Positions 1 through 62,878 of a stretch of DNA of 64,000 nt are shown piece by piece. The notes beneath the pieces were generated by a model, which saw only the letters and a program-made list of their open reading frames with translations, did not search any database and was not told where the DNA came from. Source of the stretch: Squalus acanthias (lineage: Eukaryota); assembly GCA_030390025.1 (NCBI GenBank), contig CM059432.1, positions 44,828,001 to 44,892,000 on the forward strand, written 5' to 3'. The translations under genes and the position numbers were made by a program. Numbering within the stretch: position 1 is the first letter of the stretch; each line of letters starts with the position of its first letter.

Positions 1-830
1 ATAGTCTGGTTCAGCCTGAGACAGGGCCAGGGAGGAGGATGGGGTCGGTAGCTAGGGAATGGAGTTTGTGCTGTGGGCCGAAGACTATGGCTTCGGATTT
101 CCCAATGTTGAATTGGAGGAGATTTCTGCTCATTCAGAACTGGATGTCGGAAAAACAGCCTGACAACACAGAGGTAGTGGAGAGGCCGAGAGAGATGGTA
201 GTGAGGTAGAGCTGGGTGTCATCAGAATACCTGTGGAATCTAATGTGCTTTCAGATAATATCACTGAGAGACAGCATGTAGATGAGAAATAGGAGTGGCT
301 AAGGAGAGAACCTTGGGGAACTCCAGAGGTAACGATGCAGGAGCAGGAAGAGAAGCTATTGCAGGAGATTCTCTGGGTATGACTGGATTGATAAGAATGG
401 AACCAGGCAAGGGCAGTCCCACTCAGCTGGTTAGGATTAGGGTTGGAGAAGGAGAGTGTGGTCAACCGTGTCAAAGTCTGCACAGGTCGAGAAGGATAAG
501 GAGAGGTAGTGTACCATAGTCACAGTCACATAGGATGTCATTTGTGACTTGATTAGTGCTGTTTCAGTGTTGTGGTAGGGACGGAAACCTGATTGGAGAG
601 GGTCAGACATGGAGTGGGAAATATGGGCATGGATTTTGGAGGTGACACCACATTCAAGGTCTTTGGAGAGAAAAGGGAGGTGGGAGATGGGGTCAAGGGT
701 AGGTTTTTTGAGGAGGGTGATGATGACAGCAAATTTGAAAGGCAGCAGGACAGTTAACAATCTTAGCTAGCATGGGGGCCAGTAAGGGAAGTTTGGTGGT
801 GAACAGTTTAATGGGAATGGTGTTGAGAGA
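1..830 (-). mobile_element. L2-clade LINE remnant (RT fragment, frameshifted)
   Basis: Minus-strand ORFs contain LQSGFRPYHNTETAL, FDTVDH and SGVPQGS motifs typical of L2 RT. Confidence 0.8.
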
Positions 831-879
831 ACAGGAGATATATATTCAAATATAATGTAGTAAGCTATTATATTCGAAA

Positions 880-1512
880 TAACAACAGAAAACGCTGGAA
901 AAACTCAGCAGGTCAGGCAGCATCCGTGGAGAGAGAAACAGAGTTAACGTTTCAGGTCGAAGACCCTTCGTCAGAACTGGAAAAAAGCAGGAAATGAAAT
1001 AGATTTAAAGCAAGTATAATGCTGGGAAAAGGGGGAGGGGAATGAAAGAACAAAAGGGAAGGTCAGTGATAGGATAGAAGGCAGGAGAGATTAAGAGACA
1101 TTGAGAGACATTAAGAGATATTCAAGGCGAGAGGAGGTGTTGATGTGACAGGTTGAGGCTATATGAAGTGTGAAATGCGCTGGCGGAATGAAGGACAGCT
1201 GCCAGCTTCAGGGAGGAAAGAAAAAAAGGGGCCAAACAAAAGGGTGGATGAAAAAATAAAATATATATGTATATGTGATAGGGGCCGTGGTTATGATCTG
1301 AAATTGTTGAACTCTATGTTGAGTCCAGAGGGCTGTAGTGTGCCTAAACGAAAGATGAGGTGCTGTTCCTCGAGCTTACGCTGAGCTTCCGTGGAACAAT
1401 GCAAGAGGCCGAGGACGGTGAGGTCAGAGTGGGAGTGGAGCGGAGAATTAAAGTGACAGGCCACCGGGAGCTCGGGGTCCCCCTTACGGACTGAATGGAG
1501 GTGTTCCGCAAA
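880..1512 (-). mobile_element. Penelope-like element 3' fragment (family A): GIY-YIG C-terminus, 3' UTR and hammerhead
   Basis: ORF 1291-1530 reads FAEHLHSV..PVACHFN..RKLEEQHLIFRLGTLQPSGLN, a PLE endonuclease end, followed by a hammerhead motif. Confidence 0.85.
942..978 (-). ncRNA. Minimal type I hammerhead ribozyme (PLE family A)
   Basis: Reverse complement is AGTT-CTGACGA-AGGGTC ttc GACCT-GAAAC-GTT-AACT: intact core, stem I AGTT/AACT, palindromic ACGT stem III. Confidence 0.8.
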
Positions 1513-1659
1513 TTCCGCTATTATATTCATTAGCTTGTCATTTCACATTCTGTTTGAGTCATGTGTTCATGTGAAATAAGTTTAGTGGTATGAGCCTTTC
1601 TTCATCTGAACTGTGGAAAATAAATAATTATTAGGGCTATGCTAATGAAACAATAGGCT

Positions 1660-1840
1660 ATTTCAACGCTTATTAAATGAGCCAGATTTTTGAACTACAG
1701 GGGAGTCAAGGGTTATGGGGATCAGGCAGATAAGTGAAGTTGAGGCCAAGATCAGATCAGCCATGATCTTATTGAATGGCGGAGCAGGCTCGAGGGGCTG
1801 AATGGTCTACGCCTGCTCCTATTTCTTATGTTCTTATGTT
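1660..1840 (+). mobile_element. CR1 LINE 3' end
   Basis: CR1 3' UTR (GATCAGCCATGATC..GGCGGAGCAGGCTCG) with a TTCTTATG repeat tail. Confidence 0.8.
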
Positions 1841-1938
1841 ATTATGTAGCCCAATGAGTAAGCTGCTCATTACATATGTATGATTATATTCATTACATTG
1901 CAGGACATGTGAGGAGAGGAGAAAGGTTGTGAGGGGTG

Positions 1939-3450
1939 CGGTAGCATTGTGGTTATGTTACTGGACTAATGATCCAGAGACATGAGTTCAAATCCCACCA
2001 TGGCAGCTGAAGAATTTAAATTCAGTTAATTAAATAAATCTGGAATTAAAAACCATCTGGTTCACTAATGTCCTTCAGGGAAGGAAATCTGCCCTCCTTA
2101 CCTGGTCTGGCCTATACATGACTCCAGACCCACAGCAATGTGGCTGACTCTTAACTGCCCTCTGAAATGGCCTAGTAAGCCACTCAGTTGTACCAAACCG
2201 TAACAGAAAACAATAATAAGAATAAAACCGGACGGACACGGCATCAACCTCGGCACCGTCTTCAGACACGACAAAGGCACACCCAGTCCAAACGACCCGG
2301 CAAAGCCCTCCTCACTAACATCTGAGGCCAAAATCGGGAGAGCTGTCCCACACACTAGTCAAGCAACAGCCTGACATAGTCATACTCACAGAATCATACC
2401 TTTCAGCCAATGTCCCAAACTCCTCCATCACCATCCCTGGGTATGTCCTATCCCACTGGCAGGACAGAACCACCAGAGGAGGTGGCACAGTGCTATACAG
2501 TCGGGAGGGAGTGGCCCTTGGAGTTCTTAACATTGACTCCAGACCTCATGAAGTCTCATGGCATCAAGTCAAACATGGGCAAGGAAAGCTCCTGCTGATT
2601 ACAACCAACCGGCACCCTCCCTCAGCTGATGAATCAGTACTCTTCCATGTTGAAGCACTGAGGGTAGCAAGGGCACAGAATGTACACTGGGTGGGGGACT
2701 TCAATGTCCATCACCAAGAGTGGCTCAGTAACACTACTACTGACCGAGCTAGCCGAGTCTTGAAGGACATAGCTGCCAGACTGGGCCTGTGGCAGGTGGT
2801 GAGAGAACCAACATGAGGGAAAAACCTACTTGACCTCGTCCTCACCAATCTTCCTGTCGCAGATGCATCTGTCCATGGGAGCATTGGTAGCAGTACTTGT
2901 GGAGACAAGTTCTGTCATCATACTGAGGACACCCTCCATCATGTCGTGTGGCACTACAACCGTGCTAAATGGGATAGATTCAGAACAGATCTCGCAGCTC
3001 AAAACTGGGCATTCATGAGGCGCTGTGGGTCATCAGCAGCAGCAGAATTGTATACAACCACAATCTTGTAGCCTCATGGCCCAGCATATCTCTCACTCTA
3101 CCATTAGCATCAAGCCAGGGGACCAAGCCTGGTTCACTGAGAGTGTAGAAGAGCATGCCAGGAGCAGCACCAGGCGTACCTAAAAACGAGGTGCCAACCT
3201 GGGGATGCTGCAACACAGGACTACATGCATGCTAAACAGCAGAAGCAGCACGCTATAGACAGAGCAGGTCAGGGGCTGGGTATTCTGCAGCGAGTGTCTC
3301 ACCACCTGACTCCCCAAAGCCTTTCCACATCTACAAGGCACAAGTCTATAACCTGTTGGACGGGGCGAGGGGTAATTCCGCACATCTTACACACCGCCCA
3401 AATCTGCGACCTCTACCACCTAGAAGGACAAGGGCAGAAGGTCCACATCA
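1939..3450 (+). mobile_element. tRNA-headed CR1-group LINE (family B), internally deleted copy
   Basis: A-box TAGCATTGTGG, CTGGA/TCCAG stem-loop and B-box GAGTTCAAATCC are followed by an AP-endonuclease frame (QQPDIVILTESYL, VGDFNVHH). RT is deleted near 3265. Collinear with 42449-45714. Confidence 0.85.
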
Positions 3451-3871: not shown

Positions 3872-5820
3872 GAGGTCCAGGATGTTGATCCAGCGACGAT
3901 GCAGGAACGGTGATAGATTTTCAAGTCAGGATGGTATGTGACTTGGAGGGGAACTTGGAGGTGATGGTGTTCCCAGGTGCCTGCTGTCCTTGTCCTTCTA
4001 GGTGGTAGAGGTCACGGGTTTGGGAGGTGCTGCCGAAGACGCCTTGGTGAGTTGCTGCAGTGCATCTTGTAGATGGTACACACTGCAGCCACGGTACGCC
4101 AGTGGTGGAGGGAGTGAAAGTTTAAGGTGGTGGATGGGGTGCCAATAAAGCCGACTGCTTTGTCTTGGATGCTGTCGAGCTTCTTGAGTGTTGTCGGAGC
4201 TGCACTCATTCAGGCAAGTGGAGAGTATTCCATCACACTCCTGACTTGTGCCTTGTAGATGGTGGAAAGGCTTTGGGGAGTCAGGAGGTGAGACACTCAC
4301 TGCAGAATACCTAGCCTCTGACCTGCTCTTGTTGCCACAGTATTTATGTGGCTGGTCCAGTCAAGTTTCTGTCAATGGCGACCCCCCAGGATGTTGATGA
4401 TGGGGAATTTGGCGATGGTAATACCATTAAATGTCAAGGGGCGGTTGTTAGGTTCTCTTTTTTTGGAGATGTTCATTGCCTGGCACTTGTGTGGCGCAAA
4501 TGTTACTTGCCACTTATCAGCCCAAGCCAGAATGTTGTCCAGGTCTTGCTGCATCCGGGCACGGACTGTTTCATTATCTGAAGAGTTGCGAATGCAACTG
4601 AACACTGCAATTATCAGTGAACATCCCCACTTCTGACCTTATGATGGAGGGAAGGCCATTGATGAAGCAGCTGAAGATGGTTGGGCCGAGGACACTGCCC
4701 TGATGAACTCCTGCAGCGATGTCCTGGGACTCCAACAACCATAATCTTGTTCCTTTGTGGTAGGTATCACTCCAGCCAGTGGAGGGTTTTCCCCCTGATT
4801 CCCATTGACTTCAATTTTACTAGGGCTCCTTTATGCCATACTCAGTCAAATGCTGCTTTGATGTCAAGAGCAGTCACTCTCACCTCACCTCTGGAATTCA
4901 GCTCTTTTGTCCATGTTTGGACCAAGGCTTTAGTGAGGTCTGGAGCTAAGTAGTCCTGGCGGAACCCAAACTAAGCATTGGTGAGCAGGTTATTGGTGAG
5001 TAAGTGCCACTTGATAGCACTGCTGATGACACCTTCCATCACTTTGCTGATGATTGAGTGTAGACTGATGGGGCGGTAATTGGCCGGGTTGGATTTGTCC
5101 TGCTTTTTGTGGACAGGACATACCTGGGCAGTTTTCCACATTGTCGGGTAGATGCCAGTGTTGTAGCTGTACTGGAACAGCTTGGGTAGAGGCGCGGCTA
5201 GTTCTGGAGCACAAATCTTCAGCACTACAGCTGGAATGTTGTAGAGGCCCATAATCTTTGCTGTATCCAGTGCGCTCAGCCGTTTCTTGATATCACATGG
5301 AGTGAATCGAATTTGCTTCTGTGGTGGTGGGGACCTCAGAAGGAGGCCGGTATTGATCATCCACTCGACACTTCTGGCTGAAGATGATTGCAAACGCTTC
5401 AGCCTTGTCTTTTGCACTCACGTGCTGGGCTCTGCCATCATTGAGGATGGGGATGTTCATGGAGCCTCCTCCTCCTGTTAGTTGTTTAATTGTCCACCAC
5501 CATTCACGACTGGATGTGGCAGGACTGCAGAGCTTTGATCTGATCCAGTGGTTGTGGGATTGCTTAGCTTTGTCTATAGCATGCTGCTTCTGCTGTTTAG
5601 CATGTATGTTGTCCTGTGCTGTAGCTTCACCAGGTTGGCACCTCATTTTTAGGTATGCCTAGTGCTGCTCCTGGCATGCTCTTCTACACTCCTCATTGAA
5701 CCAGGGTTGATACCCTGGCTTGATGGTAATGGTAAAGTGAGGGATATGTTGAGCAATGAGGTTACAGATTGTGGTGGATTGCAATTCTGTTGCTGCTGAT
5801 GGCCCACAGCGCCTCATGGT
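3872..5820 (-). mobile_element. CR1-group LINE family B, RT-region fragment
   Basis: NYRPISL, ALDIKAAFD and WQVTFAPHKC motifs; near-identical to 42600-44570. Confidence 0.9.
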
Positions 5821-6601
5821 GGATGGTGGAAAGGCTTTCAGGAGCTCAGGGTAGGTTATCAGAAAAATGGTTTAATTTCAAAATGCAAAATAACCCACAG
5901 GACTAAAACAAATTGTTTTTCTTAATTATTGTAAGGCCATATGCTATTCAGGGCTGCTATCTATGCTCCAACTCCATATAGGGTTATGCTCAGCGATTCC
6001 CTTTCAGCCCAGTTACGATAATAGGCCAGAACTTTATAACTGTTGAATAAATGTAGCAACTGCTGTGTATCATTATTCCTCAAGCATGATACAAAATGTG
6101 AATACAAGACTGATGACCAGATCTACAGGTTTGCAGTGACTGAATAGGGCAGACTTGCCTCTTGTAGCATTTGGGCATGAAGGAATCCCTTGGGCGGAAC
6201 GCATGAAGGGAAATCGGACATGGAGACTCGCATGCATGCAATGGATTCTGCCTGATTTTCCATTCATTAATTAAAATGGATATGGGCATGTGAATCTCCC
6301 TGCTTCATTTTACTCTCAGCGCTGCAGCCAATCTTGTTTTTATGATTGCGCACAATTAGATTAATATCTGCCCTGATAAATCAAATTCTATTTTTACTCC
6401 ATGGATTTTTCGTGATATTTTGGTGATTGCATTCCAATTTATTCCAATGTTTTTTGTGAAAACCAAAACCAGTGACCCTATTGATGATCATTTTACCAGG
6501 GCTGGAACCTTTGAGTGGCTTTTCCCAGCTGAGACCATACACTGTTGTTTTAAAACAAAATCTTTGGCCTCGATATTAACTCTCCCATGCCTTGTGGGAA
6601 A

Positions 6602-8650
6602 CCCAATGAGACAATCAATGATCCGGAACAGCAGACAGAGGGAACCGCAGTGCAGCAACCGAAGAAGAAAGAGTCAAATTGGACCCCTCCGGAGGGTCGC
6701 TGCCCTAAGCTTGACATGTATGCTCAAGCTGTCAGGAAATGCATCAACGCCAGAATCATCAGCCGCACTCACAAGACAGTCCAGAATGTCACCCGAGCAC
6801 AACGCAATGCCATCCACGCTCTCAAGACCAACCGCAACATCGTCATCAAACCAGCGGACAAAGGAGGAGCCATCGTCATACAGAACAGAATGGACTATTG
6901 CAAAGAAGCATACCGACAACTGGACAACCAGGAACACTACAGACAGTTACCCGCAGATCCGACCAAAGAACACACCCGCCAACTCAATAGACTGATCAAG
7001 ACCTTCGATCCAGACCTTCAAAGCATCCTACGCGCTCTCATCCCACATATTCCCCGTGTGGGAGACTTCTACTGCCTCCCAAAGATACACAAAGCCAACA
7101 CACCCGGACGTCCTATCGTATCAGGCAACGGAACCCTGTGTGAGAACCTCTCTGGGTACGTCGAGGGCATCCTGAAACCCATCGTACAGGGAACCCCCAG
7201 CTTCTGTCGCAACACTACAGACTTCTTACAGAAACTCAGCACCCATGGACCAGTTGAACCAAGAACACTCCTCGCCACGATGGACGTATCGGCACTCTAC
7301 ACCAGTATCCCCCACGATGACGGCATCGCTGCAACAGCCTCAGTACTCAACACCAACAACAGCCAATCTCCAGACACCATCCTACAACTCATCCGCCTCA
7401 TCCTTGACCACAATGTCTTCACCTTCGACAACCAGTTTTTTACCCAAACACACGTAACAGCCATGGGGACCAAATTCGCACCCCAATACGCCAACATCTT
7501 CATGCACAAGTTCGAGCAAGACTTCTTCGCTGCACAGGACCTCCAACCAACGCTGTACACCAGATACATCGACGACATCTTCTTCCTTTGGACCCACGGC
7601 GAAGGATCACTGAAAGGACTACACGATAACATCAACAGGTTCCATCCCACTATCAAACTCACCATGGACTACTCCTCAGAATCGGTTTCATTCTTGGACA
7701 CACAAATCTCCATCAAAGACGGACACCTCAGCACTTCACTCTACCGCAAGCCCACGGACAACCTCACGATGCTCCACTTCTCCAGCTTCCGCCCTAACCA
7801 CGTTAAAGAAGCCATCCCCTATGGACAAGCCCTGCGAATACACAGGATCTGCTCAGACGAGGAGGAACGCGATGGACACCTACGGACGCTGAAAGACGCC
7901 CTCGTAAGAACGGGATATGACGCTCGACTCGTCGATCGACAGTTCTGACGGGCCACAGCGAAAAATCGCATAGACCTCCTCAGAAGGCGAACACGGGACA
8001 CAACCAACAGAGTACCCTACATCGTCCAGTACTTCCCTGGAGCGGAGAAACTACGCCATGTTCTTCGCAGCCTTCAACATGTCATCGATGATGACGAACA
8101 CCTTGCTAAGGCCATCCCCATGCCTCCACTACTCGCCTTCAAGCAGCCGCCTAACCTCAAAAGTGCCATCGTTCGCAGCAAATTACCCAGCTGTCAGGAG
8201 AACAGCGACCACGACACCACACAACCCTACCACGGCAACCTCTGCAAGACATGCCAGATCATCAACACAGATACCATCATCACACGTGAGGACACTACCC
8301 ACCAGGTACATGGTACACACTCATGTGACTTGGCCAACGTTGTCTACTTCATACGTTGCAGGAAAGAATGCACCGCGGCATGGTACATCGGCGAGACCAT
8401 GCAGACACTGAGACAACGTATGAACGGACACCACGCAACAATCGCCAGGCAGGATTGTTACCTCCCAGCCGGGGAACACTTCAGCAGTCAAGGACATTCA
8501 GCCTCGGATCTGCGGGTTAGCGTTCTCCAAGGCGGCCTTCGAGACACACGACAACGCAAAATCATCGAGCAGAAACTGATAGCCAAGTTCCGCACCCATG
8601 AGGATGGCCTCAACCAGGATCTCCGTTTCATGTCACACTACAGAATGTGA
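6602..8650 (+). pseudogene. PLE reverse transcriptase + GIY-YIG endonuclease ORF with one in-frame stop (7946-7948)
   Basis: Motifs IKPADKGG, LPKIHK..PGRPIVS, MDVSALYTSIP, AMGT, RYIDD, NVVYFIRC..WYIGET. ORFs 6587-7948 and 8120-8650 share a frame with no other stop between them. Confidence 0.93.
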
Positions 8651-37929: not shown

Positions 37930-40040
37930 CTTTGTCCTTCTAGGTGGTAGAGGTTGCATGTTTCGGAGGTGCTGTTGAAGAAGCCTTGGCGAGATGCTGC
38001 AGTGCATCTTGTAGATGGTACACACTGCGGCCATGGTACGCTGGTGGTGGAGGGAGTGAATGTTTAAGGTCGTGGATGGGGTGCCAATCAAGTAGGCTGC
38101 TTTGTCCTGGATGGTGTCAAGCTTCTTGGGTGTTGTTGGAGCTGCACTCATCCAGGCAAATGGAGAGTATTCCATCACACTCCTGACTTGCACCTTGTAG
38201 ATGGTGGAAGGACTTTGGGGAGTCAGGAGGCGAGGCACTCGCCACAGTTTATGTGGCTGGTCCGGTTAAGTTTCTGGTCAATGGTGACCCCTAGGATGTT
38301 GATGGTGGGGGATTCAGCGATGGTAATGCCATTAAATTTCAAGGGAAGGTGGCCAGATTCTCTTGTCGGAGATGGTGATTACCCTGCACGTTTGTGGTGA
38401 GAATGTTAATTGCCACTTATCAGCCCAAGCCAGGTCTAGCTGCAACAAATACAAAAGCAAAATACTGCGGATGCTGGCAATCTGAAATAAAAACAGAAAA
38501 TGCTGGAAATACTCAGCAGGTCAGGCAGCATCTGTGGAGAGAGAAACAGCATTAACGTTTCAGGTCGATGACCCTTCGTCATAACTGGAAAAAGTTGGAG
38601 ATGTAACAGATTTTTAAGCAAGTGTAGAGGCAGGGAGAGGGGGGAGGGGAGGAAAGAACAAAAGGGAAGGTCTGTGATAGGGCCGAAGGCAGGAGAGATT
38701 AAGATACAAGGGATGATGGTGCAAGACAAAAGGAGATGGTAATGGAACAAGTTAAGAAACAAAAGATGACTCTAGATGAAGTGTAAATGCCAGTGGCAGA
38801 ATGATCGACAGCTGCCATGTGAGAGAGAGAAAAAAAATAATGATGGGGCAGAGGTTATGGTCTGAAATTGTTGAACTCAATGTTGATTCTTGCTGCATGT
38901 GGGCACAAACTGCTTCATTATCTGAGGAGTTGCGAATGGAACTGAACACTGTGCAATCATCACCGAACGTCCCCACTTCTGACCTTATGATGGAGGGAAG
39001 GTCATTGAAGAAGCAGCTGAAGATGGTTGGACATAGGACACTGCCCTTAGGAACTCCTGCAGTGCTGTCCTTGGGGGCTAGATGATTGGCCTCCAACAAC
39101 CACAACCATCTTCCTTTGTGCTAGGTATGACCCCAGCCAGTGGGTAATTTTCCCCCTGATTCCCACTGACTTCAATTTTACTGGGGCTCCTTCATGCCAC
39201 TCTCGGTCAAATGCTGCCTTGATGTCAAGGGCAGTCACTCTCACTTCACCTCTGGAATTCAGATCTTTTGTCCTTGTTTGGACCAAGGCTGTAATGAGGT
39301 CGGGAGCTGAGTGGTCCTGGTGGAACCCAAACTGAGCATTGGTGAGCAGGTTATTTGTGAATAGGTCCCACATAATAGCACTGTCAACGGCACCTTCCAT
39401 CACTTTGCTGATGATTTAGAGTAGACTGATGCGGTGGTAATTGGCCAGATTGGATTTGTCCTGCTTTTTTTGTGGACAGAACATACCTGGGTAATTTTCC
39501 ACTTTGTCAGGTAGATGCCAGTGTTGTAGCTGTACTAGAACAGCTTGGCTAGAGGCGTGGCTAATCCTGGAGCACAAGGATGCAGCAAGACAGCCGGGAT
39601 ACTGTCGGGGCCCATAGCTTTTGCTGTATCCAATGCGCTCAGCCATTTCTTGATATCACTTGGAGTGAATCGAATTGGCTGAAGACTGGCTTCTGTGATG
39701 GTGGGGACGTCAGGAGGAGGCCGAGATGGATCATCCACTTGGCACTTCTGGCTGAAGATGGTTGGAAATGTTTCAGCCTTGTCTTTTGTACTCATGTAGC
39801 TGATCTCTACCATCATTGAGGATGAAGATGTTCATGGAGACTCCTCTTCCCGTTATGTTGTTTATTTGTCCACCACCATTCATGACTGGATGTTGTAGGA
39901 CTGCAGAACTTTGATCTGATGCATTGGTTGTGGGATCGCTTACCTCTGTCTATAGCATGCTGCTTCTGCTGTTTAGTATGCATGTAGTCCTGTGTTGTAG
40001 CTTCACCAGGTTGGCACCTCCTTTTTAGGTACGCCTGGCA
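37930..40040 (-). mobile_element. CR1-group LINE family B fragment interrupted by a PLE
   Basis: Homologous to 42720-44420; ALDIKAAFD, FFNDLP. Confidence 0.9.
38443..38885 (-). mobile_element. PLE family A 3' fragment with mutated hammerhead (ATGACGA core, 38551-38587)
   Basis: Homologous to 880-1320. Confidence 0.8.
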
Positions 40041-42441: not shown

Positions 42442-42448
42442 TGAATTT

Positions 42449-45400
42449 AAAAAAAATTCGTTTATGGGATCAGGGTGTCGTTGGCAAGGCCAGCATTTAT
42501 TGCCCATCCCTAGTTGCCCTTGAGAAGGTGGTGGTGAGCCGCCTTCTTGAACCGCTGCAGTCCGTGTGGTGATGGTACTTCCACAGTGCTGTTAGGTAGG
42601 GAGTTCCAGGATTTTGACCCAGCGACGATGAAGGATCGGCGATATACTTCTAAGTCAGGATGGTGTGTGACTTGGAGGGGAACTTGGAGGTGGTGGTGCT
42701 CCCATGCTCCTGCTGCCCTTGTCCTTCAAGGTGGAAGAGGTCGCGGGTTTGGGAGGTGCTGCCGAAGAAGCCTTGGCGAGTTGCTGCAGTGCATCTTGTA
42801 GATGGTACACACTGCAGCCACGGTACACCGGTGGTGGAGGGAGTGAATGTTTAAGGTGTTGGATGGGGTGCCAATCAAATGGGCTGCGTTGTCCTGGATG
42901 GTGTCGAGCTTCTTGAGTGTTGTTGGAGCTGCACTCATCCAGGCAAGTGGAGAGTATTCCATCACACTCCTTACTTGTGCCTTGTAGATGGTGGAAATGC
43001 TTTGGGGAGTCAGGAGGTGAGACACTCGCTGCAGAATACCTAGCCTCTGACCTGCTCTTGTTGCCACAGTATTTATGTGGCTGGTCCAGTTAAGTTTCTG
43101 GTTAATGGTGACCCCCAGGATGTTGATAGTGGGGGATTCGGCGATGGTAATGCCATTGAATGTCAAGGGGAGGTGGTTAGACTCTCGCTTGTTGGAGATA
43201 GTCATTGCCTGGCACTTCTGTGGTGCGAATGTTACCTGCCACTTATCAGCCCAAGCCTGAACGTCATCCAAGTCTTGTTGCATGCAGGCATGGACTGCTT
43301 TATTATCTGTGGAGTTGCGAATGGCGCTGAACACTGTGCAGTCATTAGCGAACATCCCCATTTCTGACCTTATGTTGGAGGGAAGGTCATTGATGAAGCA
43401 GCTGAAGATGGTTGGGCCTAGGACACTGCCCTGAGGAACTCCTACAGCGATGTCCTGGGGCTGTGATGATTGACCTTCAACCACCACAACCATCTTCCTT
43501 TGTGCTAGGTATGACTCCAGCCAGTGGAGTGTTTTCCCCATGATTCCCGTTGACTTCAGTTTTACTAGGGCTCCTTGATGCCAGACTCAGTCAAATGCTG
43601 CCTTGATGTCAAGGGCAGTCACTCTCACCTCACCTCTTGAATTCAGCTCCTTTGTCCATGTTTGGACAAAGGCTGTAATGAGGTCGGGAGCCGAGTGGTC
43701 TTGTCGGAACCCAAACTGGGCATCAGTGAGCAGGTTATTGGTGAGTAAGTGCCGCTTGATAGCACTGTCGATGACACCTTCCATCACTTTGCTGATGATT
43801 GAGAGTAGACTGATGGGGCGGTAATTGGTCGAGTTGGATTTGTCCTGCTTTTTGTGGACAGGACATACCTGGGCAGTTTTCCACATTGTCGGATAGATGC
43901 CAGTTTTGTAGCTGTTTTGGAACAGCTTGGCTAGAGGCGTGGCTAGTTCTGCAGCACAAGTCTTCTGCACGATAGCCGGGATGTTGTCGGGGCCCATAGC
44001 CTTTGCTGTATCCAGTGCGCTCAGCCGTTTCTTGATATCATGTGGAGAAAATCGAATTGGCTGAAGACTGGCTTCTGTGATGGTGGGGACCTCGGGAGTA
44101 GGCCGATATGGATCATCCACTCGGCACTTCTGGCTGAAGTTGGTTGCAAACGCTTCAGCCTTGTCTTTTGCACTCATGTGCTGGGCTCCACCATCATTGA
44201 GGATGGGGATATTCTTCGAGCCTCCTCCTCCCGTTAGTTGTTTAATGGTCCACCACCATTCACGACTGGATGTGGCAGGACTGCAGAGCTTTGATCTGAT
44301 CCGTTGATTGTGGGATCGCTTAGCCCTGTCTATAGCATGCTGCTTTTGCTTTTTAGCATGCATGTAGTCCTGTGTTGCAGCTTCCCCAGGTTGGCACCGC
44401 ATTTTTAGGTACGCCTGGTGCTGCTCCTGGCATGCTCTTCTACACTCGTTGTTGAACAGGGTTGGTCCCCTGTCTTGGTGGTAATGGTAGAGTGAGGGAT
44501 ATGCCGGGCCATGAGGTTACAGATTGTGGTGAAATACAATTCTGCTGCTGCTGATGGCCCACAGCACCTCATGGATGCCCAGTTTGGAGCTGCCAGATCT
44601 GTTCTGAATCTATCCCATTTAGCACGGTGGTAGTGCCACACAACACGATGGAGGGTGTTCTCAGTGTGAAGACGGGACTTCGTCTCCACAATGACTGTGC
44701 AGTGTTCACTGCTGCCAATGCTGTCATGGACAGATGCATCTGCGACAGGTAGATTGGTGAGGACGAGGTCAAGTAGGTTTTTCCCTCGTGTTGGTTCTCA
44801 CCACCTGTAGCAGGCCCAGACTGGCAGTTATGTCCTTCAGGACTCGGCGAGCTCGGTTAGTAGTGATGCTACCGAACCACTCTTGGTGATGGACATTGAA
44901 GTCCCCCACCCAGAGTACATTCTGTGCCAATGCTACCTGCAGTGCTCCTTCCAAGTGATGTTCAACATGGAGGAGTACTGATTCATCAGCTGAGGGAGGG
45001 CAGTTGGTGGTAAACAGCAAGAGGTTTCCTTGCCCATGTTTCACCTTATTCCATGAGACTTCATGGGGTCTGAATTTAATGTTGAAGACTCTCGGCCACT
45101 CCCTCCCAACTGTATGCCACTGTGCTGCCACCTCTGGTGGTTCTGTCCTGCCGGTGGGACAGGACATTCCCAGAGATGGTGATGGAGGAGTTTGGAACAT
45201 TGGCTGAAAGGTATGATTCTGTGAGAATGAGTATGTCAGGCTGTTGCTTGATCAGTCTGTGGGACAGCTCTCCCAATTTTGGCACAAATCCCCAGATGTT
45301 CGTGAGGAGGACTTTGCAGGGTCGACAGGGCTGGGCATGCCTTTGCCATGTCCGAAATTGGTGCCTTGGTCGATGCCGGGTGATCGGTCCAGTTTTATTC

Positions 45401-45714
45401 TTGTTATTTTTCCGAGCGGTTTGAGTTGGATTGCTGGATCATTTCAGAGGCAACCACATTGCTGTTAATCTGGAGTCACATATAGGCCAGACTAGGTAAG
45501 GGCAGCAGATTTCCTTCCCTAAAAGACATTAGTGAACCAAATGGGTTCTTACGACAATCTGATAGTTTCATGGTCACCATTACTGATATTAGCTTTTTAT
45601 TCCAGATTTATTGAATTGAATTTAAGTTTCACAGCTTCCATTTGAAGTCATGTCTCTGGATTGTTAGTTCAGGCCTCTGGATTAGTTGTCCAGCAACATA
45701 ACCACATGCTACCG
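42449..45714 (-). mobile_element. Full-length tRNA-headed CR1-group LINE (family B): single EN-RT frame, no ORF1
   Basis: Head CGGTAGCATGTGG at 45714; EN starts at about 45320 (CKVLLTNIWG, PDILILTESYL, VGDFN); RT motifs ALDIKAAFD, GVPQGSVLGP, FANDC; stop at 42510-42512; AATAAA at 42496-42501; T8 at 42449-42456. Several frameshifts and stops. Confidence 0.9.
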
Positions 45715-46216
45715 TTGAGGTAGGAGAATTGCTCCCTGAACACCCTGGGTGGATATGGCCTCCTGCTGAGAGCCCTTCTGCCCCTTCTCCTCCTGCCTCT
45801 TCTAGCAGCTTGTCCTGCTCTGCGTTGTCTCTGCTCATTCTCCCCATCATGCTGCAGGCCAAGTGGGATATAAACTACTGCAACCATGCAACTGTTCTGA
45901 GCAGACCCCTTGCAAGTCAGTACCAAGTCCTTGAGCATGTGCCATACCACTCCTTGTAGACTTTAGGCAAATTTAAAGAAATCTAGAAAGCACCAACCAC
46001 TTCTACAAACTCAGCAACAGCTAGTAGAAATCAATCAGCAACTAACCTGTAAGTAGGTGATGATTCCCTTTCAATTGCGCTGGTGGGGGGGTCCATCCTG
46101 CTGCTGAACGCATGTTCAGCTGTGCAAGGTTAAGAGAGGGCGTTCGCTCCAGCGCTGAGGTTGAAAATGGCAGCGATGGCGTCAAATCAGTGTCACACTC
46201 TGATTGACGTCACGAT

Positions 46217-56989: not shown

Positions 56990-58795
56990 ATGTTTTATAA
57001 GTACATTAAGAGCAAGAGGATAACTAAAGAAAGAGTAGGGCCTATTAGAGACCATAAAGGTAATCTGTGTGTGGAGGTGGAAGACATGGGTATGGTTCTT
57101 AATGAATACTTTGCGTCTGTTTTCACAAAAGAGAGGGGCGATGCAGACATTGCAATCAGGGAGGAGGAGTGTGAAATATTAGATGAAATAAACATAGTGA
57201 GAGAGGAAGTATTAAAGGGCTTAGCAGCTTTGAAAGTGGATAAATCCCCAGGCCTGGATGAAATGTATCCCAGGTTGTTAAGAGAAGCAAAAGAGGAAAT
57301 AGCAGAGGATCTGACCATCATTTTCCAATTCTCTCTGGCTACAGGTATGGTACTGGAGGACTGCTAACATTGTACCTTTGTTTAAAAAAGGAGAAAGGGT
57401 TAGACCGAGTAATTACAGGCCAGTCAGCCTAACCTCGGTGGTGGGAAAATTATTGGAAAAAGTTCTGAGGGACAGGATAATTCTTCATTTAGAAAGACAC
57501 GAATTAATCAAGGACAGTCAGCATGGATTTGTTAAGGGAAGATTGTGTCTGACTAACTTGCTTGAATTTTTTGAGGAGGTAACAAGGAGGGTCAATGAGG
57601 GTAGTGCATTTGATGTAGTGTATATGGATTTTAGCAAGGCTTTTGATAAGGTCCCACATGGCAGACTGGTCACGAAAGTGAAAGCCCATGGGATCCAGGG
57701 CAAAGTGGCAAGTTGGATCCAAAATTGGCTCAGAGGCAGGAAGCAAAGGGTAATGGTTGATGGGTGTTTTTGTGACTGGAAGGCTGTTTCCAGTGGGGTT
57801 CCGCAGGGCTCAGTACTAGGTCCCTTGCTTTTTGTGGTATATATCAATGATTTAGACTTGAATGTAGGGGGTATGATTAAGAAGTTTGCAGATGATATTA
57901 AAACCGTCTGTGTGGTTGATAACGAAGAAGAAAGCTGTAGACCGCAAGAAGATATCAATGAACTGGTCAGGTGGGCAGAACAGTGGCAAATGGAATTCAA
58001 TCCAGAGAAATGTGAGGTAATGCATTTGGGGAGGGCTAACAAGGCAAGGGAATACACATTAAATGGTAGGACAGTGAGAAGTGTAGAGGGACAAAGGGAC
58101 CTTGGAGTGCAGGTCCACAGATCCCTGAAGGCAGCAGGCCAAGTAGATAAGATGGTTAAGAATGCATACGGAATACTTGCCTTTATTAGCCGAGGCATAG
58201 AACACAAGAGCAGGGAGGTTATGCTTGAACTGTATAAAACACTAGTTAGGCCACAGCTAGAGTACTGCGTGCAGTTCTGGTCACCACATTACAGGAAAGA
58301 TGTGATTGCACAAGAGAGGGTACAGAGGAGATTCACGAGGATGTTGCCTGGACTGGAGAATTTTAGCTACGAGGAAAGATTGGATAGGCTGGGTTTGTTT
58401 TCTTTGGAACAGAGGAGGCTGAGCGGAGACCTTATTGAGGTGTATAAAATTATGAGGAGCCTAGATAGAGTGGATAGGAAGCAGCTATTTCCCTTAGCAG
58501 AGGGGTCAACAACCAGGGGGCATAGATTTAAAGTAATTGGTAGGAGGTTTAGAGGGGTAATGAGGGGAAATTTCTTCATGGGGATCTGGAGCTCACTGCC
58601 TGAAAGGGTGGTAGAGGCAGAAACCCTCACCACATTTAAAAAGTGCTTGGATGTGCACTTGAAGTGCCGTAACCTACAGGGCTACAGACCAAGAGCTGGG
58701 AAGTGGGATTAGGCTGGATAGCTCTTTGTCGGCCGGCGCGGACACGATGGGCCGAAATGGCCTCCTTCTGTGCTGTAAATTTCTGTGATTCTATG
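56990..58795 (+). mobile_element. CR1 LINE 3' portion with a 444-aa uninterrupted RT/C-terminal frame
   Basis: ORF 57378-58712: NYRPVSL, QHGF, DFSKAFD, GVPQGSVLGP, KFADD; tail TTCTGTGATTCTATG. Confidence 0.95.
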
Positions 58796-59571: not shown

Positions 59572-61262
59572 TAGAATCATAGACATTTATGGCACAGAAG
59601 GAGACCATTCAGCCCATCATGTCTGTGCTGGCCAAAAAAAAACGATCTAGCCTAATCCCACTTTCCAGCTCCTGGTCCGTAGTTCGTAGGTTACAGCATA
59701 TCAACTGCATATCCAATTACTTTTTAAATGTGATGAGGGTTTCTGCCTCTACCACCCTTTCAGGCAGTAAGTTCCAGACCCCCACCACCCTCTGGGTGAA
59801 AACATTTCACCTCAACTCCCCTCTAATCCTTCTACCAATTACTTTAAATCTATGCTCCCTGGTTATTGTCCTCTCTGCTAAGGGAAATAGGTGCTTCCTA
59901 TCCACTCTATCTAGGCCCCTCATAATTTTATACACCTCAATTAAGTCTCACCTCAGCCTCCTCTGTTCCAAAGAAAACAACCTCAGCCTATCCAATCTTT
60001 CCTCATAGCTAAAATTCTCCAGTCCTGGCAACATCCTCGTAAATCTTCCCTTTGTACCCTCTCTAGTGCAATCACATCTTTCCTGTAATGTGGTGACCAG
60101 AACTGTATGCAGTACTCTAGCTGTGGCCTAACTAGTGTTTTACATAGTTCTAGCATAACCTCCCTGCTCTTATATTCTATGCCTCGGCTAATAAAGGCAA
60201 GTATCCCGTATGCCTTCTTAACCACCTTATCTACCTGTCCTGCTACCTTCATAACCTGTCATACACTCCAAGGTCCCTCTGTTCCTCTACATTTCTCAGT
60301 ATCTGATCATTTATTGTGTATTCCTTTACCTTGTTTGCCCTCCCCAAATGCATTACCTCACACTTCTCCCGATTGAATTCCATTTGCCACTGTTCTGCCC
60401 ACCTGACCAGTCCACTGATAACTTCCTGCAGTCTACAGCTTTCTTCCTCACTATCAACCACATGGCCAATTTTCATATCATCTGCAAACTTCTTAATCAT
60501 GCCACCTACATTGAAGTCTAAACCATTGATATATACCACAAAAAGCAAGGGACCTAGTACTGAGCCCTGCGGAACCCCACTGGAAACAGCCTTCCAGTCA
60601 CAAAAACACCCGTCGACCATTACTGTTTGCTTCTTGCCACTGAGCCAATTTTGGATCCAACTTGCCACTTCCCCTTGTATCCCATGGGCTTTTATTTTTC
60701 TGACCAGTCTGCCATGTGGGATCTTATCAAAAGCCTTGCTAAAATCCATGTAGACGACACCAAACGAGCTACTCTCATTGACCCTCCTTGGTCCCTCCTC
60801 AAAAAATTCAAGCAAGTTAGTCAAACATGACCTTCCTTTAACAAATCCATGCTGACTGTCTTTGATTAATCCGTGTCTTTCTAAATGATGGTTTACTCTG
60901 CCCCTCAGAACTTTTTCCAATAATTTTCTCACCACCAAAGTTAGGCTGACTGGCCTTTAATTACTCGGTCTATCCCTTTCTCCCTTTTTAAACAACGGTA
61001 CAACGTTAGCAGTCCCCCAGTCCTCCGGCACCACACCTGTAGCCAGAGAGGATTGGAAAATGATGGTCAGAGCCTCTGCTATTTCCTCTCTTGCTTCTCT
61101 TAACAGCCTGGGATACATTTCATCCGGGCCTAGTGATATATCTACTTTCAAAGATGCTAAACACCTTAATATTTCCTCTCTCACTATGTTTATCTCATCT
61201 AATATTTCACACTACTCCTCCTTAACTACAATGTCTGCATCATTCCTCTCTTTTATTAAGAC
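59572..61262 (-). mobile_element. CR1 LINE 3' portion (same subfamily as 56990-58795)
   Basis: ORFs 60249-60938 and 59983-60252 are highly similar to the plus-strand copy. Confidence 0.95.
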
Positions 61263-62878
61263 ATTGGCCTTTTCACCTGGGACCTGGGCAGAAACCCAAA
61301 CTAGAATGATAGGATGAAAGTCTACTCTGTCAAATGTGTGTGTGTGCGTTTTTCCCTACACGTACCCTTTATTCAACTCCTTTTTACATACTGTTCATCG
61401 ATAGTATCTTCCAATTCTGATGACGGGTCCATACCTGAAATATATCTGTTCTCTCCACAGATGCTGCCTGGCAAGCTGAGTGTTTCCAGCATTTTCTGTT
61501 CCTGTTTCAGATTTCCAACATCTGCAGCATTTTACTTTTCGTTGAACCTCTTTATAATGATACACAGGAATCTGGTGCAAATGCATTAGCAAGTGCTCAG
61601 ATAGGTGGTATGGGATGTGGAACAATGCCGCACTATTGCAGTAGGTGGTGCTCTTCTAAGATTTGAAATGAAGCACATTGAGATAAAAATAATGCTTCTG
61701 CACTCATGTTGGAACTGCAGATTGCAAAGATACACAACTCCAGCTTGTAATTTTCAGCTCATTAATTATAATGGACTGAAAGTCACAGTCTAGCCACATG
61801 CAATTCCATGTTATGCTCTTTGGAGGGACTGAGAGCACAGAAACAGAAATTTTACTCCTTTATTGGGGCAGAATAGTTTTACTCTGGACTTAACTATGCT
61901 GTACCTGTGATAAACACAACATTCACAAAAAAAAACTTACACGAGGGAAGGTGACAAAAATTTAAATCTCATAAATAGAAACTGAAATGCATCAAAATGA
62001 CCTGAAATCGCAAAACTGTTTTGAAGGACTCATATTGTAAATCCATTGGGAGCCCACTGGAACAGATTGAGTCAGGATCCAGTTAGGTCAGATCCAGGCC
62101 TTAAGTGCGAGATTCCATGATGCCTTTGTGAGGGCGGAGTCTCCCCCCACCCCTAGCCTCTACAAGGCCATCGATGTAAGGGACTCCCTAAGATGCCGTA
62201 TAATCCCCGAAGGTACACCTGTTCTCACCAGGAGTACCTTACTGATTCCATTAGAAGTGGGGCCCACTTTGGAGTCCAGTTTGGGATTGGAGCTTGGACT
62301 CCTGAAAATAGCAAGGCCAAAAAAGAGGGCTCCTTGGACAACCAGCCTTTTCTTCCAAGGGAGACTTGTCCTCCCAGGCCAGCCAGCTACTGCTGGCATT
62401 TCTGGCTTTCTAGATTCTCCATTGGGTGGGCCCCCACGCCACCAAATGTCCACTCCTGCAGGCCCCACCTCCCTAACCCAGCTCCTACAGGAAGAGGAGC
62501 CCACACCTCTGCCAGGTACTGTTTCAGCACAGAATGAACTACCTTTCCTCCAGATCATGTTCCATTAAAAAATAACATGATTTGGAGCCATTTGTGCAGG
62601 TTCAAAATGGATTAATGTCCAAACACAACAGACATCTATGAGTGCCCGGGAGCTGAAGGAGCATTTAAAATGCAAAAAGGACCAATTATAAGTGTGATTT
62701 TACACTTTTTTTCTAATTTTTTAAACCATCTAGTAGGTAAGACTTTGTACCATCGGTTCCACCACTGGTATATTTAGCATCAGTGTCTCTGCTTTGCACC
62801 TGGGGAGTGCTCAGTTCCCAAGGGCAAAGCACAGGAAAAAGAGGCATAGACACATGAGACTCTGCCCTATTTACATTG

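What the first reader, a model, noticed from the sequence alone, without database searches (positions are those of the whole stretch)
42449..45714. Pol III terminator avoidance inside family B, with AATAAA + T8 at its 3' end
Seen (by-eye scan): the sense strand of this 3.26-kb copy has only two internal TTTT runs (44048-44051, 45521-45524), and sister copies lack both at the homologous sites (5301 and 39663; about 2072). I found none in copies 1939-3450, 3872-5820 or 37930-40040. The ordinary CR1 at 57378-58712 has at least seven in 1.3 kb. The element ends with stop, AATAAA, about 40 nt, then TTTTTTTT. Established: T4 or longer terminates vertebrate Pol III, and AATAAA plus terminator is the layout of polyadenylated T+ SINEs such as rodent B2. 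Caveat: sense T content is only about 20%, so roughly 4 runs are expected by chance, and only one copy shows the 3' end. This is suggestive, not proof.
Basis: partly seen in the sequence, partly recalled or inferred. Interest (0 to 1): 0.75.

Follow-up and report, generated by a model that had tools for sequence, protein, structure and literature searches.

The report
Shark LINE avoids Pol III terminators
This is a dead copy of an abundant shark-and-ray jumping gene that encodes its own copying enzyme, starts with a tRNA-type promoter, and lacks the T-runs that stop RNA polymerase III along its whole 3.3 kb, so it is likely a protein-coding element made by a polymerase that normally makes only short non-coding RNAs; the T8 at this copy's end is most likely a worn poly(A) tail, not a family terminator.

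Summary
The counts hold. Family B is the elasmobranch CR1-Zenon LINE (3.3 kb, one APE-RT frame; PMC13343379).

T-run avoidance is real, but the T4 count alone does not show it. The 30-copy majority has 0 T4 against 1.6 expected from synonymous-codon shuffles (P=0.15). TTT is 5 vs 13 (P=0.001); 5-nt windows with 4+ T are 1 vs 8.9 (P=0.004, post hoc). The depletion is T- and sense-strand-specific. Two CR1 families and a T-poor Penelope lack it, and none of 133 invertebrate relatives is T4-free.

Full-length copies start 8 nt before a tRNA A box, and the frame was under purifying selection (dN/dS 0.26).

The 'AATAAA + T8' terminator is not a family feature. The usual end is AAT + poly(A): 510 exact copies against 135 with T4+ in the young subtype. 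T and A lengths trade off, as in tail erosion. Young copies carry more T than old ones, a weak B2-like hint.

Best reading: a Pol III-made coding LINE (0.6); no RNA evidence. This scan noted the same family elsewhere in this genome.

The parts
42446..45716 (-). Near-full-length, decayed copy of the 3.3-kb elasmobranch CR1-Zenon LINE (family B)
   Evidence: 94.2% identical to the family majority over element positions 4-3305; family covers 3.9% of a 600-kb spot sample
45702..45711 (-). tRNA-type A box, damaged in this copy (family TAGCGTAGTGG at +9..+19)
   Evidence: Rfam tRNA match on a better copy, 22.3 bits, E=0.033, below the gathering score
45638..45648 (-). B box, decayed in this copy (family GTTCAAATCC at about +74..+83)
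45521..45524 (-). Internal T4 gained after insertion (family CCTTTAG)
   Evidence: 3 of 49 copies from unbiased searches, 14 of 43 where the query carried it; carriers share no clear excess of rare alleles (0.54 vs 0.47 per kb)
45415..45441 (-). Anticodon-like hairpin (decayed here) and in-frame GCT; predicted non-AUG start region
   Evidence: 4-bp stem with CUAGCAA loop; the GCT-to-AATGAA spacer is a multiple of 3 in 66 of 69 parsed copies (91 examined, 22 not parsed)
42510..45417 (-). Single APE endonuclease + reverse transcriptase frame (973 codons in the family, first in-frame ATG at codon 287); frameshifted here near 45093, 44796 and 44456
   Evidence: dN/dS 0.26 between old and young family majorities, P=1.6e-5
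44048..44051 (-). Internal T4 private to this copy (family GATTCACTCC)
42496..42501 (-). AATAAA in the loop of the predicted 3' stem-loop
   Evidence: kept in 96 of 103 3' ends; fold
42446..42456 (-). T8 + AAA: family ...GAAT plus a poly(A) tail whose first As are inferred to have turned to T
1935..3265 (+). Sister copy, 5' part with head, 86% identical; no sense T4
3872..5819 (-). Sister copy, element positions 1186-3160, 90% identical; no sense T4
37932..40038 (-). Sister copy in two pieces (37932-38431, 38888-40038) with an unrelated insert between them that holds the T4 runs

Best explanation
Family B is an autonomous single-frame CR1-Zenon LINE with a tRNA-derived A/B-box head and a T-run-free sense strand, and it is likely transcribed end to end by RNA polymerase III, which would explain why source elements kept out T4 and near-T4 runs. 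Shown: head at a fixed 5' end, intact frame under purifying selection, T-specific sense-strand depletion, modal 3' end AAT + poly(A). Inferred: TFIIIC binds the A/B boxes; any T4 in the 3.3 kb would cut the RNA short, so such sources leave no offspring; most sources have no terminator of their own, so Pol III would read through the templated A-tail and stop at the first flanking T-run (as for Alu and ID, the T- SINEs); sources whose tail eroded to T4+ could stop there and be polyadenylated at the AATAAA (as for B2). The uncapped RNA would be translated from a non-AUG start near the in-frame GCT behind an anticodon-like hairpin. The window copy is dead (damaged boxes, frameshifts), and its two T4 runs and T8 are inferred post-insertion changes.
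For: Majority of 30 copies: 0 T4, 7 TTT in 3300 nt, against 14 T4+ on the antisense strand. Codon shuffles: TT 74 vs 90 (0 of 5000 as low), TTT 5 vs 13.2 (P=0.0008), A/C/G runs normal. Windows with 4+ T of 5: 1 vs 8.9 (P=0.004); 5' UTR 0 vs 5.6 (P=0.027); TTT and 4-of-5 counts below expectation in all four quarters of the frame. Controls: two CR1 families T4 13 vs 12; Penelope with lower T content, 4-of-5 windows 10 vs 10.8; 0 of 133 invertebrate relatives T4-free, lowest 4-of-5 O/E 0.63 against 0.11. 19 of 30 head-matched loci begin GGGAA directly before the head with unrelated flanks; no other shared 5' end among 54 truncated copies. dN/dS 0.26 for lineage changes against 0.72 for rare changes. 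Copies gain T4 freely after insertion, 0.61 per 3.3 kb. Published Zenon consensuses of five elasmobranch species start with A/B-box heads and show no T4 in the visible first 400 nt, while hagfish and coelacanth Zenons show no such head and have T4+ runs (read by eye).
Against: No RNA or polymerase data. T4=0 alone is not significant (P=0.15), and TTT is only borderline against a dinucleotide shuffle (P=0.058). The 4-of-5 statistic was chosen after the first tests. The family's T content (18.8%) is below that of all 133 relatives (lowest 20.1%), so the comparison extrapolates. 4 of 133 relatives reach TTT z<=-3 and 3 reach TT z<=-4 without a visible head. The Penelope control also has few T4 (1 vs 1.4), T3+ runs at 5 vs 9 (P=0.047) and a 3/27 TTT/TTC ratio. 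Head and depletion co-occur in one lineage only. Old and young majorities differ at just 51 sites, too few to test T4 exclusion directly. That shark Pol III stops at T4 is carried over from human (PMC5095917).
Confidence: 0.6

Rival explanations
1. An ordinary Pol II LINE that once captured a SINE or tRNA head; its T-run poverty comes from composition, reverse-transcriptase bias or avoidance of U-rich RNA signals, not from Pol III.
For: T4=0 is within chance under codon and dinucleotide shuffles. The Penelope family in this genome is also T-poor with few T-runs. Some headless relatives show partial depletion (L367: T4 1 vs 8.5). AATAAA plus a poly(A) tail is a Pol II layout, and poly(A) tails are general for Zenons (PMC13343379).
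Against: Codon shuffles keep composition, yet TT, TTT and 4-of-5 windows stay depleted and only for T. T|T codon junctions O/E 0.34 against a minimum of 0.53 in relatives and 0.85 in Penelope. A and B boxes persist in five species while the sequence between them changes (by eye). Eight upstream AUGs and no in-frame AUG before codon 287 fit cap-dependent scanning poorly.
Confidence: 0.2
2. Split labour: Pol III makes the uncapped RNA that is copied into new insertions (hence no T-runs), while the protein comes from capped Pol II read-through transcripts of copies in host genes.
For: T-run avoidance needs only the template RNA to be Pol III-made. Kojima states that SINEs cannot encode a protein (PMC5786205, passage). 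No Rfam IRES family matched the 5' UTR.
Against: Purifying selection on the frame in the same lineage is easier to explain if an RNA's own protein copies it. The frame-keeping spacer after the hairpin and GCT points to a built-in non-AUG start.
Confidence: 0.12
3. One reading: the element is a T+ SINE-like unit whose sources routinely end at their own T4+ terminator and are polyadenylated through AATAAA.
For: AATAAA kept in 96 of 103 ends. The younger subtype carries more T than the older one, opposite to simple ageing: T3+ in 29 vs 13 of the first 100 listed (P=0.009). T3 ends (111) are at least as common as T2 appear to be. B2 terminators are known to be truncated in daughters and rebuilt by A-to-T change (PMC8466645, section 2.2).
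Against: The modal end has a single T: 510 of 925 young-type ends and 38 of 77 parsed ends, whereas about half of B2a copies with long tails keep TCTTT. Background A-tracts have similar T-runs in front (T4+ 11% vs 18%, P=0.09). T4+ does not differ significantly between subtypes (14 vs 7 of 100, P=0.17). The signal lies 40 nt from the end, and adding about 25 nt cut B2 polyadenylation 2.6-fold (PMC10572872).
Confidence: 0.15

Closest known systems
Elasmobranch CR1-Zenon LINEs (SquAca_Zenon-1 and the CarCar, RhiTyp, ScyCan, HypSab Zenon-1 consensuses; PMC13343379)
   Same: About 3.3 kb, single APE-RT frame, no ORF1, poly(A) tail; the visible first 400 nt of SquAca_Zenon-1 match the family majority nearly letter for letter (by eye)
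   Different: The paper's main text has no hit for tRNA, polymerase III or promoter; the head, the T-run avoidance and the missing AUG did not appear in the passages read
Lepidopteran Zenon and its internally deleted derivative Persaeus (PMC6740152)
   Same: Single-frame CR1-group LINE with poly(A) tail and short head-plus-tail derivatives
   Different: Persaeus, which keeps the Zenon 5' end, has no tRNA homology and no Pol III promoter (passage)
T+ SINEs B2, Dip, Ves (PMC8466645)
   Same: tRNA head with A/B boxes, AATAAA near the 3' end, A-tail, T-runs at the tail boundary that lengthen by A-to-T change
   Different: Non-coding, 150-300 nt, mammal-only, with a consensus terminator (TCTTT, TATTT or TTTT); family B is coding, 3.3 kb, and its majority end has no terminator
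T- SINEs such as Alu and ID (described in PMC8466645, introduction)
   Same: Pol III promoter inside the head, no terminator of their own, templated A-tail, stop at a flanking T-run (inferred here)
   Different: Non-autonomous, short, and without AATAAA
Dicistrovirus intergenic IRES (PMC4132737, listing and start of abstract only)
   Same: Non-AUG start behind an anticodon-like element, as predicted here
   Different: No Rfam IRES match; pseudoknot and function untested here

Membership tests
CR1-Zenon LINE | Single APE + RT frame, no ORF1 | tested here: met
   973-codon frame after a 329-nt leader; Pfam RVT_1, and Exo_endo_phos_2 just under its cut-off
CR1-Zenon LINE | Poly(A) tail | tested here: met
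   A5+ run near the end in 86 of 103 3' ends
CR1-Zenon LINE | Identity to named Zenon consensus, or RT tree placement | tested here: met
   First 400 nt match SquAca_Zenon-1 by eye; no tree was built and the rest of the cell was cut
T+ SINE | tRNA-derived head with A and B boxes | tested here: met
   (Rfam tRNA E=0.033, below gathering)
T+ SINE | AATAAA near the 3' end | tested here: met
   96 of 103 ends; 40 nt from the tail
T+ SINE | Pol III terminator before the A-tail as the usual state | tested here: not met
   T4+ in 16 of 77 parsed ends; 135 against 510 single-T ends genome-wide
T+ SINE | Short and non-coding | tested here: not met
   3.3 kb with a selected frame
T+ SINE | AAUAAA-dependent polyadenylation of a Pol III transcript; beta and tau signals | not testable with these tools
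   needs transfection and 3' RACE
Pol III type-2 transcription unit | No T4+ inside the transcribed sense strand | tested here: met
   0 in old, middle and young majorities; near-terminators depleted
Pol III type-2 transcription unit | Pol III/TFIIIC occupancy and uncapped RNA starting at +1 | not testable with these tools
   no raw-read RNA run was offered
IGR-IRES-like initiation | Anticodon-like loop pairing with an in-frame codon, non-AUG start | tested here: inconclusive
   Hairpin and in-frame GCT present, spacer keeps frame (4 other species by eye); no Rfam match; two published SquAca consensuses read out of frame there

The most novel reading that the evidence does not exclude
An autonomous, protein-coding vertebrate retrotransposon whose 3.3-kb RNA is made by RNA polymerase III, has been purged of terminators across its whole reading frame, and is translated without a cap from a non-AUG start behind a tRNA-mimicking hairpin; its internal deletions give SINEs directly, and some sources use a B2-like terminator and poly(A) cycle.
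Probability: 0.5. Interest if true: 0.92.

Novelty: new variant of a known kind. Interest (0 to 1): 0.72.

Why it matters
LINEs are held to be Pol II elements, and Pol III retroelements (SINEs) to be non-coding (PMC5786205). A natural 3.3-kb Pol III mRNA for a 970-residue enzyme would break that split. It would show that terminator avoidance can shape a coding sequence, give a vertebrate case of cap-independent non-AUG translation, and offer a direct route from LINE to SINE by internal deletion. The family makes up about 4% of the sampled genome and has close relatives in sharks and rays, so the test is simple: Pol III ChIP, 5'-end chemistry and B-box or T5 mutants in a reporter.

Tried and rejected
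T4 count alone as proof: not significant under codon or dinucleotide shuffles.

T8 as a family terminator: rejected as the usual state.

A source lineage carrying T4 at element position 208: 17 of 92 copies have it, but 14 came from searches whose query carried it, only 3 of 49 otherwise, and carriers share no clear excess of rare alleles. Read as ascertainment plus recurrent mutation.

Low Phe (1.8%) as amino-acid-level avoidance: it fits the trend with T content (2.2% predicted), and 15 of 17 conserved Phe columns are kept. Dropped.

Subfamily divergence as a test of T4 exclusion: only 51 differences, no power.

A 48-codon upstream ORF with a frameshift as the start: its ATG is ATA in 19 of 83 copies and in the old majority. 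Less likely than the GCT start, not excluded.

Target-site duplications: no clear ones in most of 31 head-bearing loci, so they could not mark the tail end.

Expression: no RNA holder listed. Four runs laid were contigs with RNA status only guessed; not used as evidence on transcription.

Viral contigs: no relative. Rfam at gathering score and ARAGORN: nothing in the window. The 5' UTR does not fold better than shuffles (z -1.2).

Literature searches for a tRNA-headed or Pol III autonomous LINE listed none; the library is open-access only. Supplement cells were cut at 400 characters, so the full published consensuses could not be counted for T4.

Full report
OBSERVATION. The element lies on the minus strand. 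Its sense strand has T4+ only at 44048-44051, 45521-45524 and the terminal T8 at 42449-42456. The stop is at 42510-42512 and AATAAA at 42496-42501, 40 nt before the tail; the T8 includes the last T of the family's ...GAAT and is followed by AAA. Sister copies lack both internal runs. 1939-3450 and 3872-5820 have none; the nine runs in 37930-40040 sit in a stretch that does not align to the family. The CR1 at 57378-58712 has seven.

WHAT IT IS. A search of the window's genome gave 31,301 candidates, 40 scored. The family covers 3.9% of sixty 10-kb stretches taken at round coordinates. The majority of the 30 best copies is 3.3 kb with one 973-codon frame; Pfam finds RT, and an endonuclease just under its cut-off. 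The head matches Rfam tRNA weakly (22.3 bits, E=0.033), with an A box at +9 and a B box at about +74. 19 of 30 head-matched loci start with GGGAA right before it, after unrelated flanks. Among 54 5'-truncated copies no other shared 5' end appeared. Old, middle and young copy groups (48, 23, 44 copies; 4.7, 3.2, 2.6% from their own majority) keep the head and the open frame. Old-to-young changes are 23 synonymous and 19 non-synonymous, dN/dS 0.26, P=1.6e-5; rare changes give 0.72. So the headed element is the autonomous lineage. The first 400 nt match SquAca_Zenon-1 in the supplement of PMC13343379 by eye. The great white, whale shark, catshark and stingray Zenons there (species read from the name prefixes) also open with A/B-box heads and show no T4 in that stretch; hagfish and coelacanth Zenons show no such head and have T4+ runs (cells cut at 400 characters). 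The main text has no hit for tRNA, polymerase III or promoter.

IS T-RUN AVOIDANCE REAL? The majority has 0 T4 and 7 TTT, against 14 T4+ on the antisense strand. T4=0 is not significant under synonymous-codon shuffles (1.6 expected, P=0.15) or dinucleotide shuffles (P=0.22), only under mononucleotide shuffles (P=0.02). TT (74 vs 90, 0 of 5000) and TTT (5 vs 13.2, P=0.0008) are depleted under codon shuffles while A, C and G runs are not; against dinucleotide shuffles TTT is borderline (P=0.058). TTT is the rarest of 64 trinucleotides, and T|T codon junctions are at 0.34 of expectation. Windows of five with four or more T, a statistic I added after the first tests to catch TCTTT-type signals, number 1 vs 8.9 (P=0.004). 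The 5' UTR has 0 vs 5.6 (P=0.027); TTT and window counts are below expectation in all four quarters of the frame, though TT is not in the last.

CONTROLS. Two CR1 families of this genome have 13 T4 vs 12 expected. A Penelope family with still lower T has few T4 (1 vs 1.4) and fewer T3+ runs than expected (5 vs 9, P=0.047), but no window depletion (10 vs 10.8). Of 160 related loci from metagenome and genome collections (read as host repeats in symbiont or environmental assemblies, many from the same few assemblies), 133 had frames of 500+ codons; 27 were dropped. None is T4-free, two have one T4; the lowest TTT O/E by composition is 0.51 against 0.26, and the lowest window O/E 0.63 against 0.11. 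Of 77 with 300+ nt upstream, none had an exact A+B pair, one had one mismatch and 21 had two. Against: family B has less T than any of them; 4 of 133 reach TTT z<=-3 and 3 reach TT z<=-4. Copies gain T4 after insertion at 0.61 per 3.3 kb (115 copies), so mutation supplies T4 readily, yet none is fixed. An apparent excess at position 208 came from my queries.

THE 3' END. Of 103 ends, 96 keep AATAAA. Of 77 that parsed, 38 have one T before the tail, 12 two, 11 three and 16 four or more; T and A lengths trade off (rho -0.70, n=54). Genome-wide exact counts for the young type: single T + A4, 510; T3 + A, 111; T4+, 135; any A/T tetramer, 925. Background A5+ tracts with a T in front reach T4+ in 11% against 18% for the family (P=0.09; that family figure leaves out long-T ends with fewer than five A, such as this copy). 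So T8A3 is best read as an eroded tail; B2 tails are reported to change the same way (PMC8466645, section 2.2). Some young sources may have had T-extended ends.

TRANSLATION. The leader has eight AUGs and the frame has none until codon 287, past the endonuclease. The spacer from GCT to AATGAA is a multiple of three in 66 of 69 parsed copies, of 91 examined. By eye it also keeps frame in four other species' consensuses but not in two SquAca ones. This resembles IGR-IRES initiation (PMC4132737, abstract start only); Rfam found no IRES. It is untested.

MECHANISM. Most likely (0.6, inferred): Pol III transcribes the whole element from the internal A/B boxes. A T4 anywhere would end the RNA (A4 on the template suffices in human, PMC5095917), so sources with T-runs leave no full-length offspring. 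Most sources would be read through their A-tail to a flanking T-run; those with eroded tails could stop at the tail and use AATAAA. Rivals: Pol II LINE with a relic head (0.2), split labour (0.12), routine T+ cycle (0.15, overlapping the main model).

KNOWN AND NEW. Member of CR1-Zenon: yes. Member of T+ SINEs: no (coding, no usual terminator), though it may work like a Pol III SINE. Seven literature searches listed no Pol III-driven autonomous LINE. Earlier notes of this scan describe the same family at other places in this genome; they are not independent support. Papers seen: PMC13343379 passages and cut supplement rows; PMC8466645 abstract, first part of the introduction, section 2.2; PMC5786205 first fifth and passages; PMC6740152, PMC11481361, PMC5499810, PMC10572872, PMC5095917 and bioRxiv 10.1101/443036 passages; PMC4132737 listing only. 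TFIIIC binding and RT recognition of 3' stem-loops are general knowledge.

VERDICT. Interest 0.72.

Noticed in passing
L038, L047, L183, L186, L212; joints: Short head-plus-tail derivatives (about the first 140-350 nt joined to the last 50-160 nt) with many different breakpoints: SINE-like elements that look like repeated internal deletions of the LINE.
   Followed up: partly
window 45415-45441 (-); element positions 304-338: Anticodon-like hairpin and in-frame GCT with a frame-keeping spacer; no in-frame AUG before codon 287. Candidate non-AUG, IRES-like start.
   Followed up: partly
element positions 358-504 (family majority): 48-codon upstream ORF overlapping the main frame in +1; its ATG is visible in all five species' consensuses but is ATA in the old subfamily here.
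   Followed up: partly
L367:4000-6035 and L344:3904-5990: Invertebrate relatives with marked T-run depletion (T4 1 vs 8.5 and 4 vs 11.6) and no visible A/B head; L367 is 5'-truncated, so a head cannot be excluded.
   Followed up: partly
window 6554-8650 (+): Young Penelope-like RT element (about 97% identity among copies) that avoids A runs strongly (AAA 41 vs 73 expected under codon shuffles).
   Followed up: partly
L156-L215 (600-kb sample): A5+ tracts are preceded by T4+ about four times more often than followed by it (113 vs 27 of 2458), a genome-wide TnAn bias.
   Followed up: no
L061-L080, L376-L435: Diagnostic sites of old and young subfamilies are mixed in blocks within many copies, suggesting recombination or template switching between source RNAs.
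   Followed up: no
window 57118-58793 and 59572-61263: Two CR1 copies in inverted orientation, 88% identical, about 780 nt apart.
   Followed up: no
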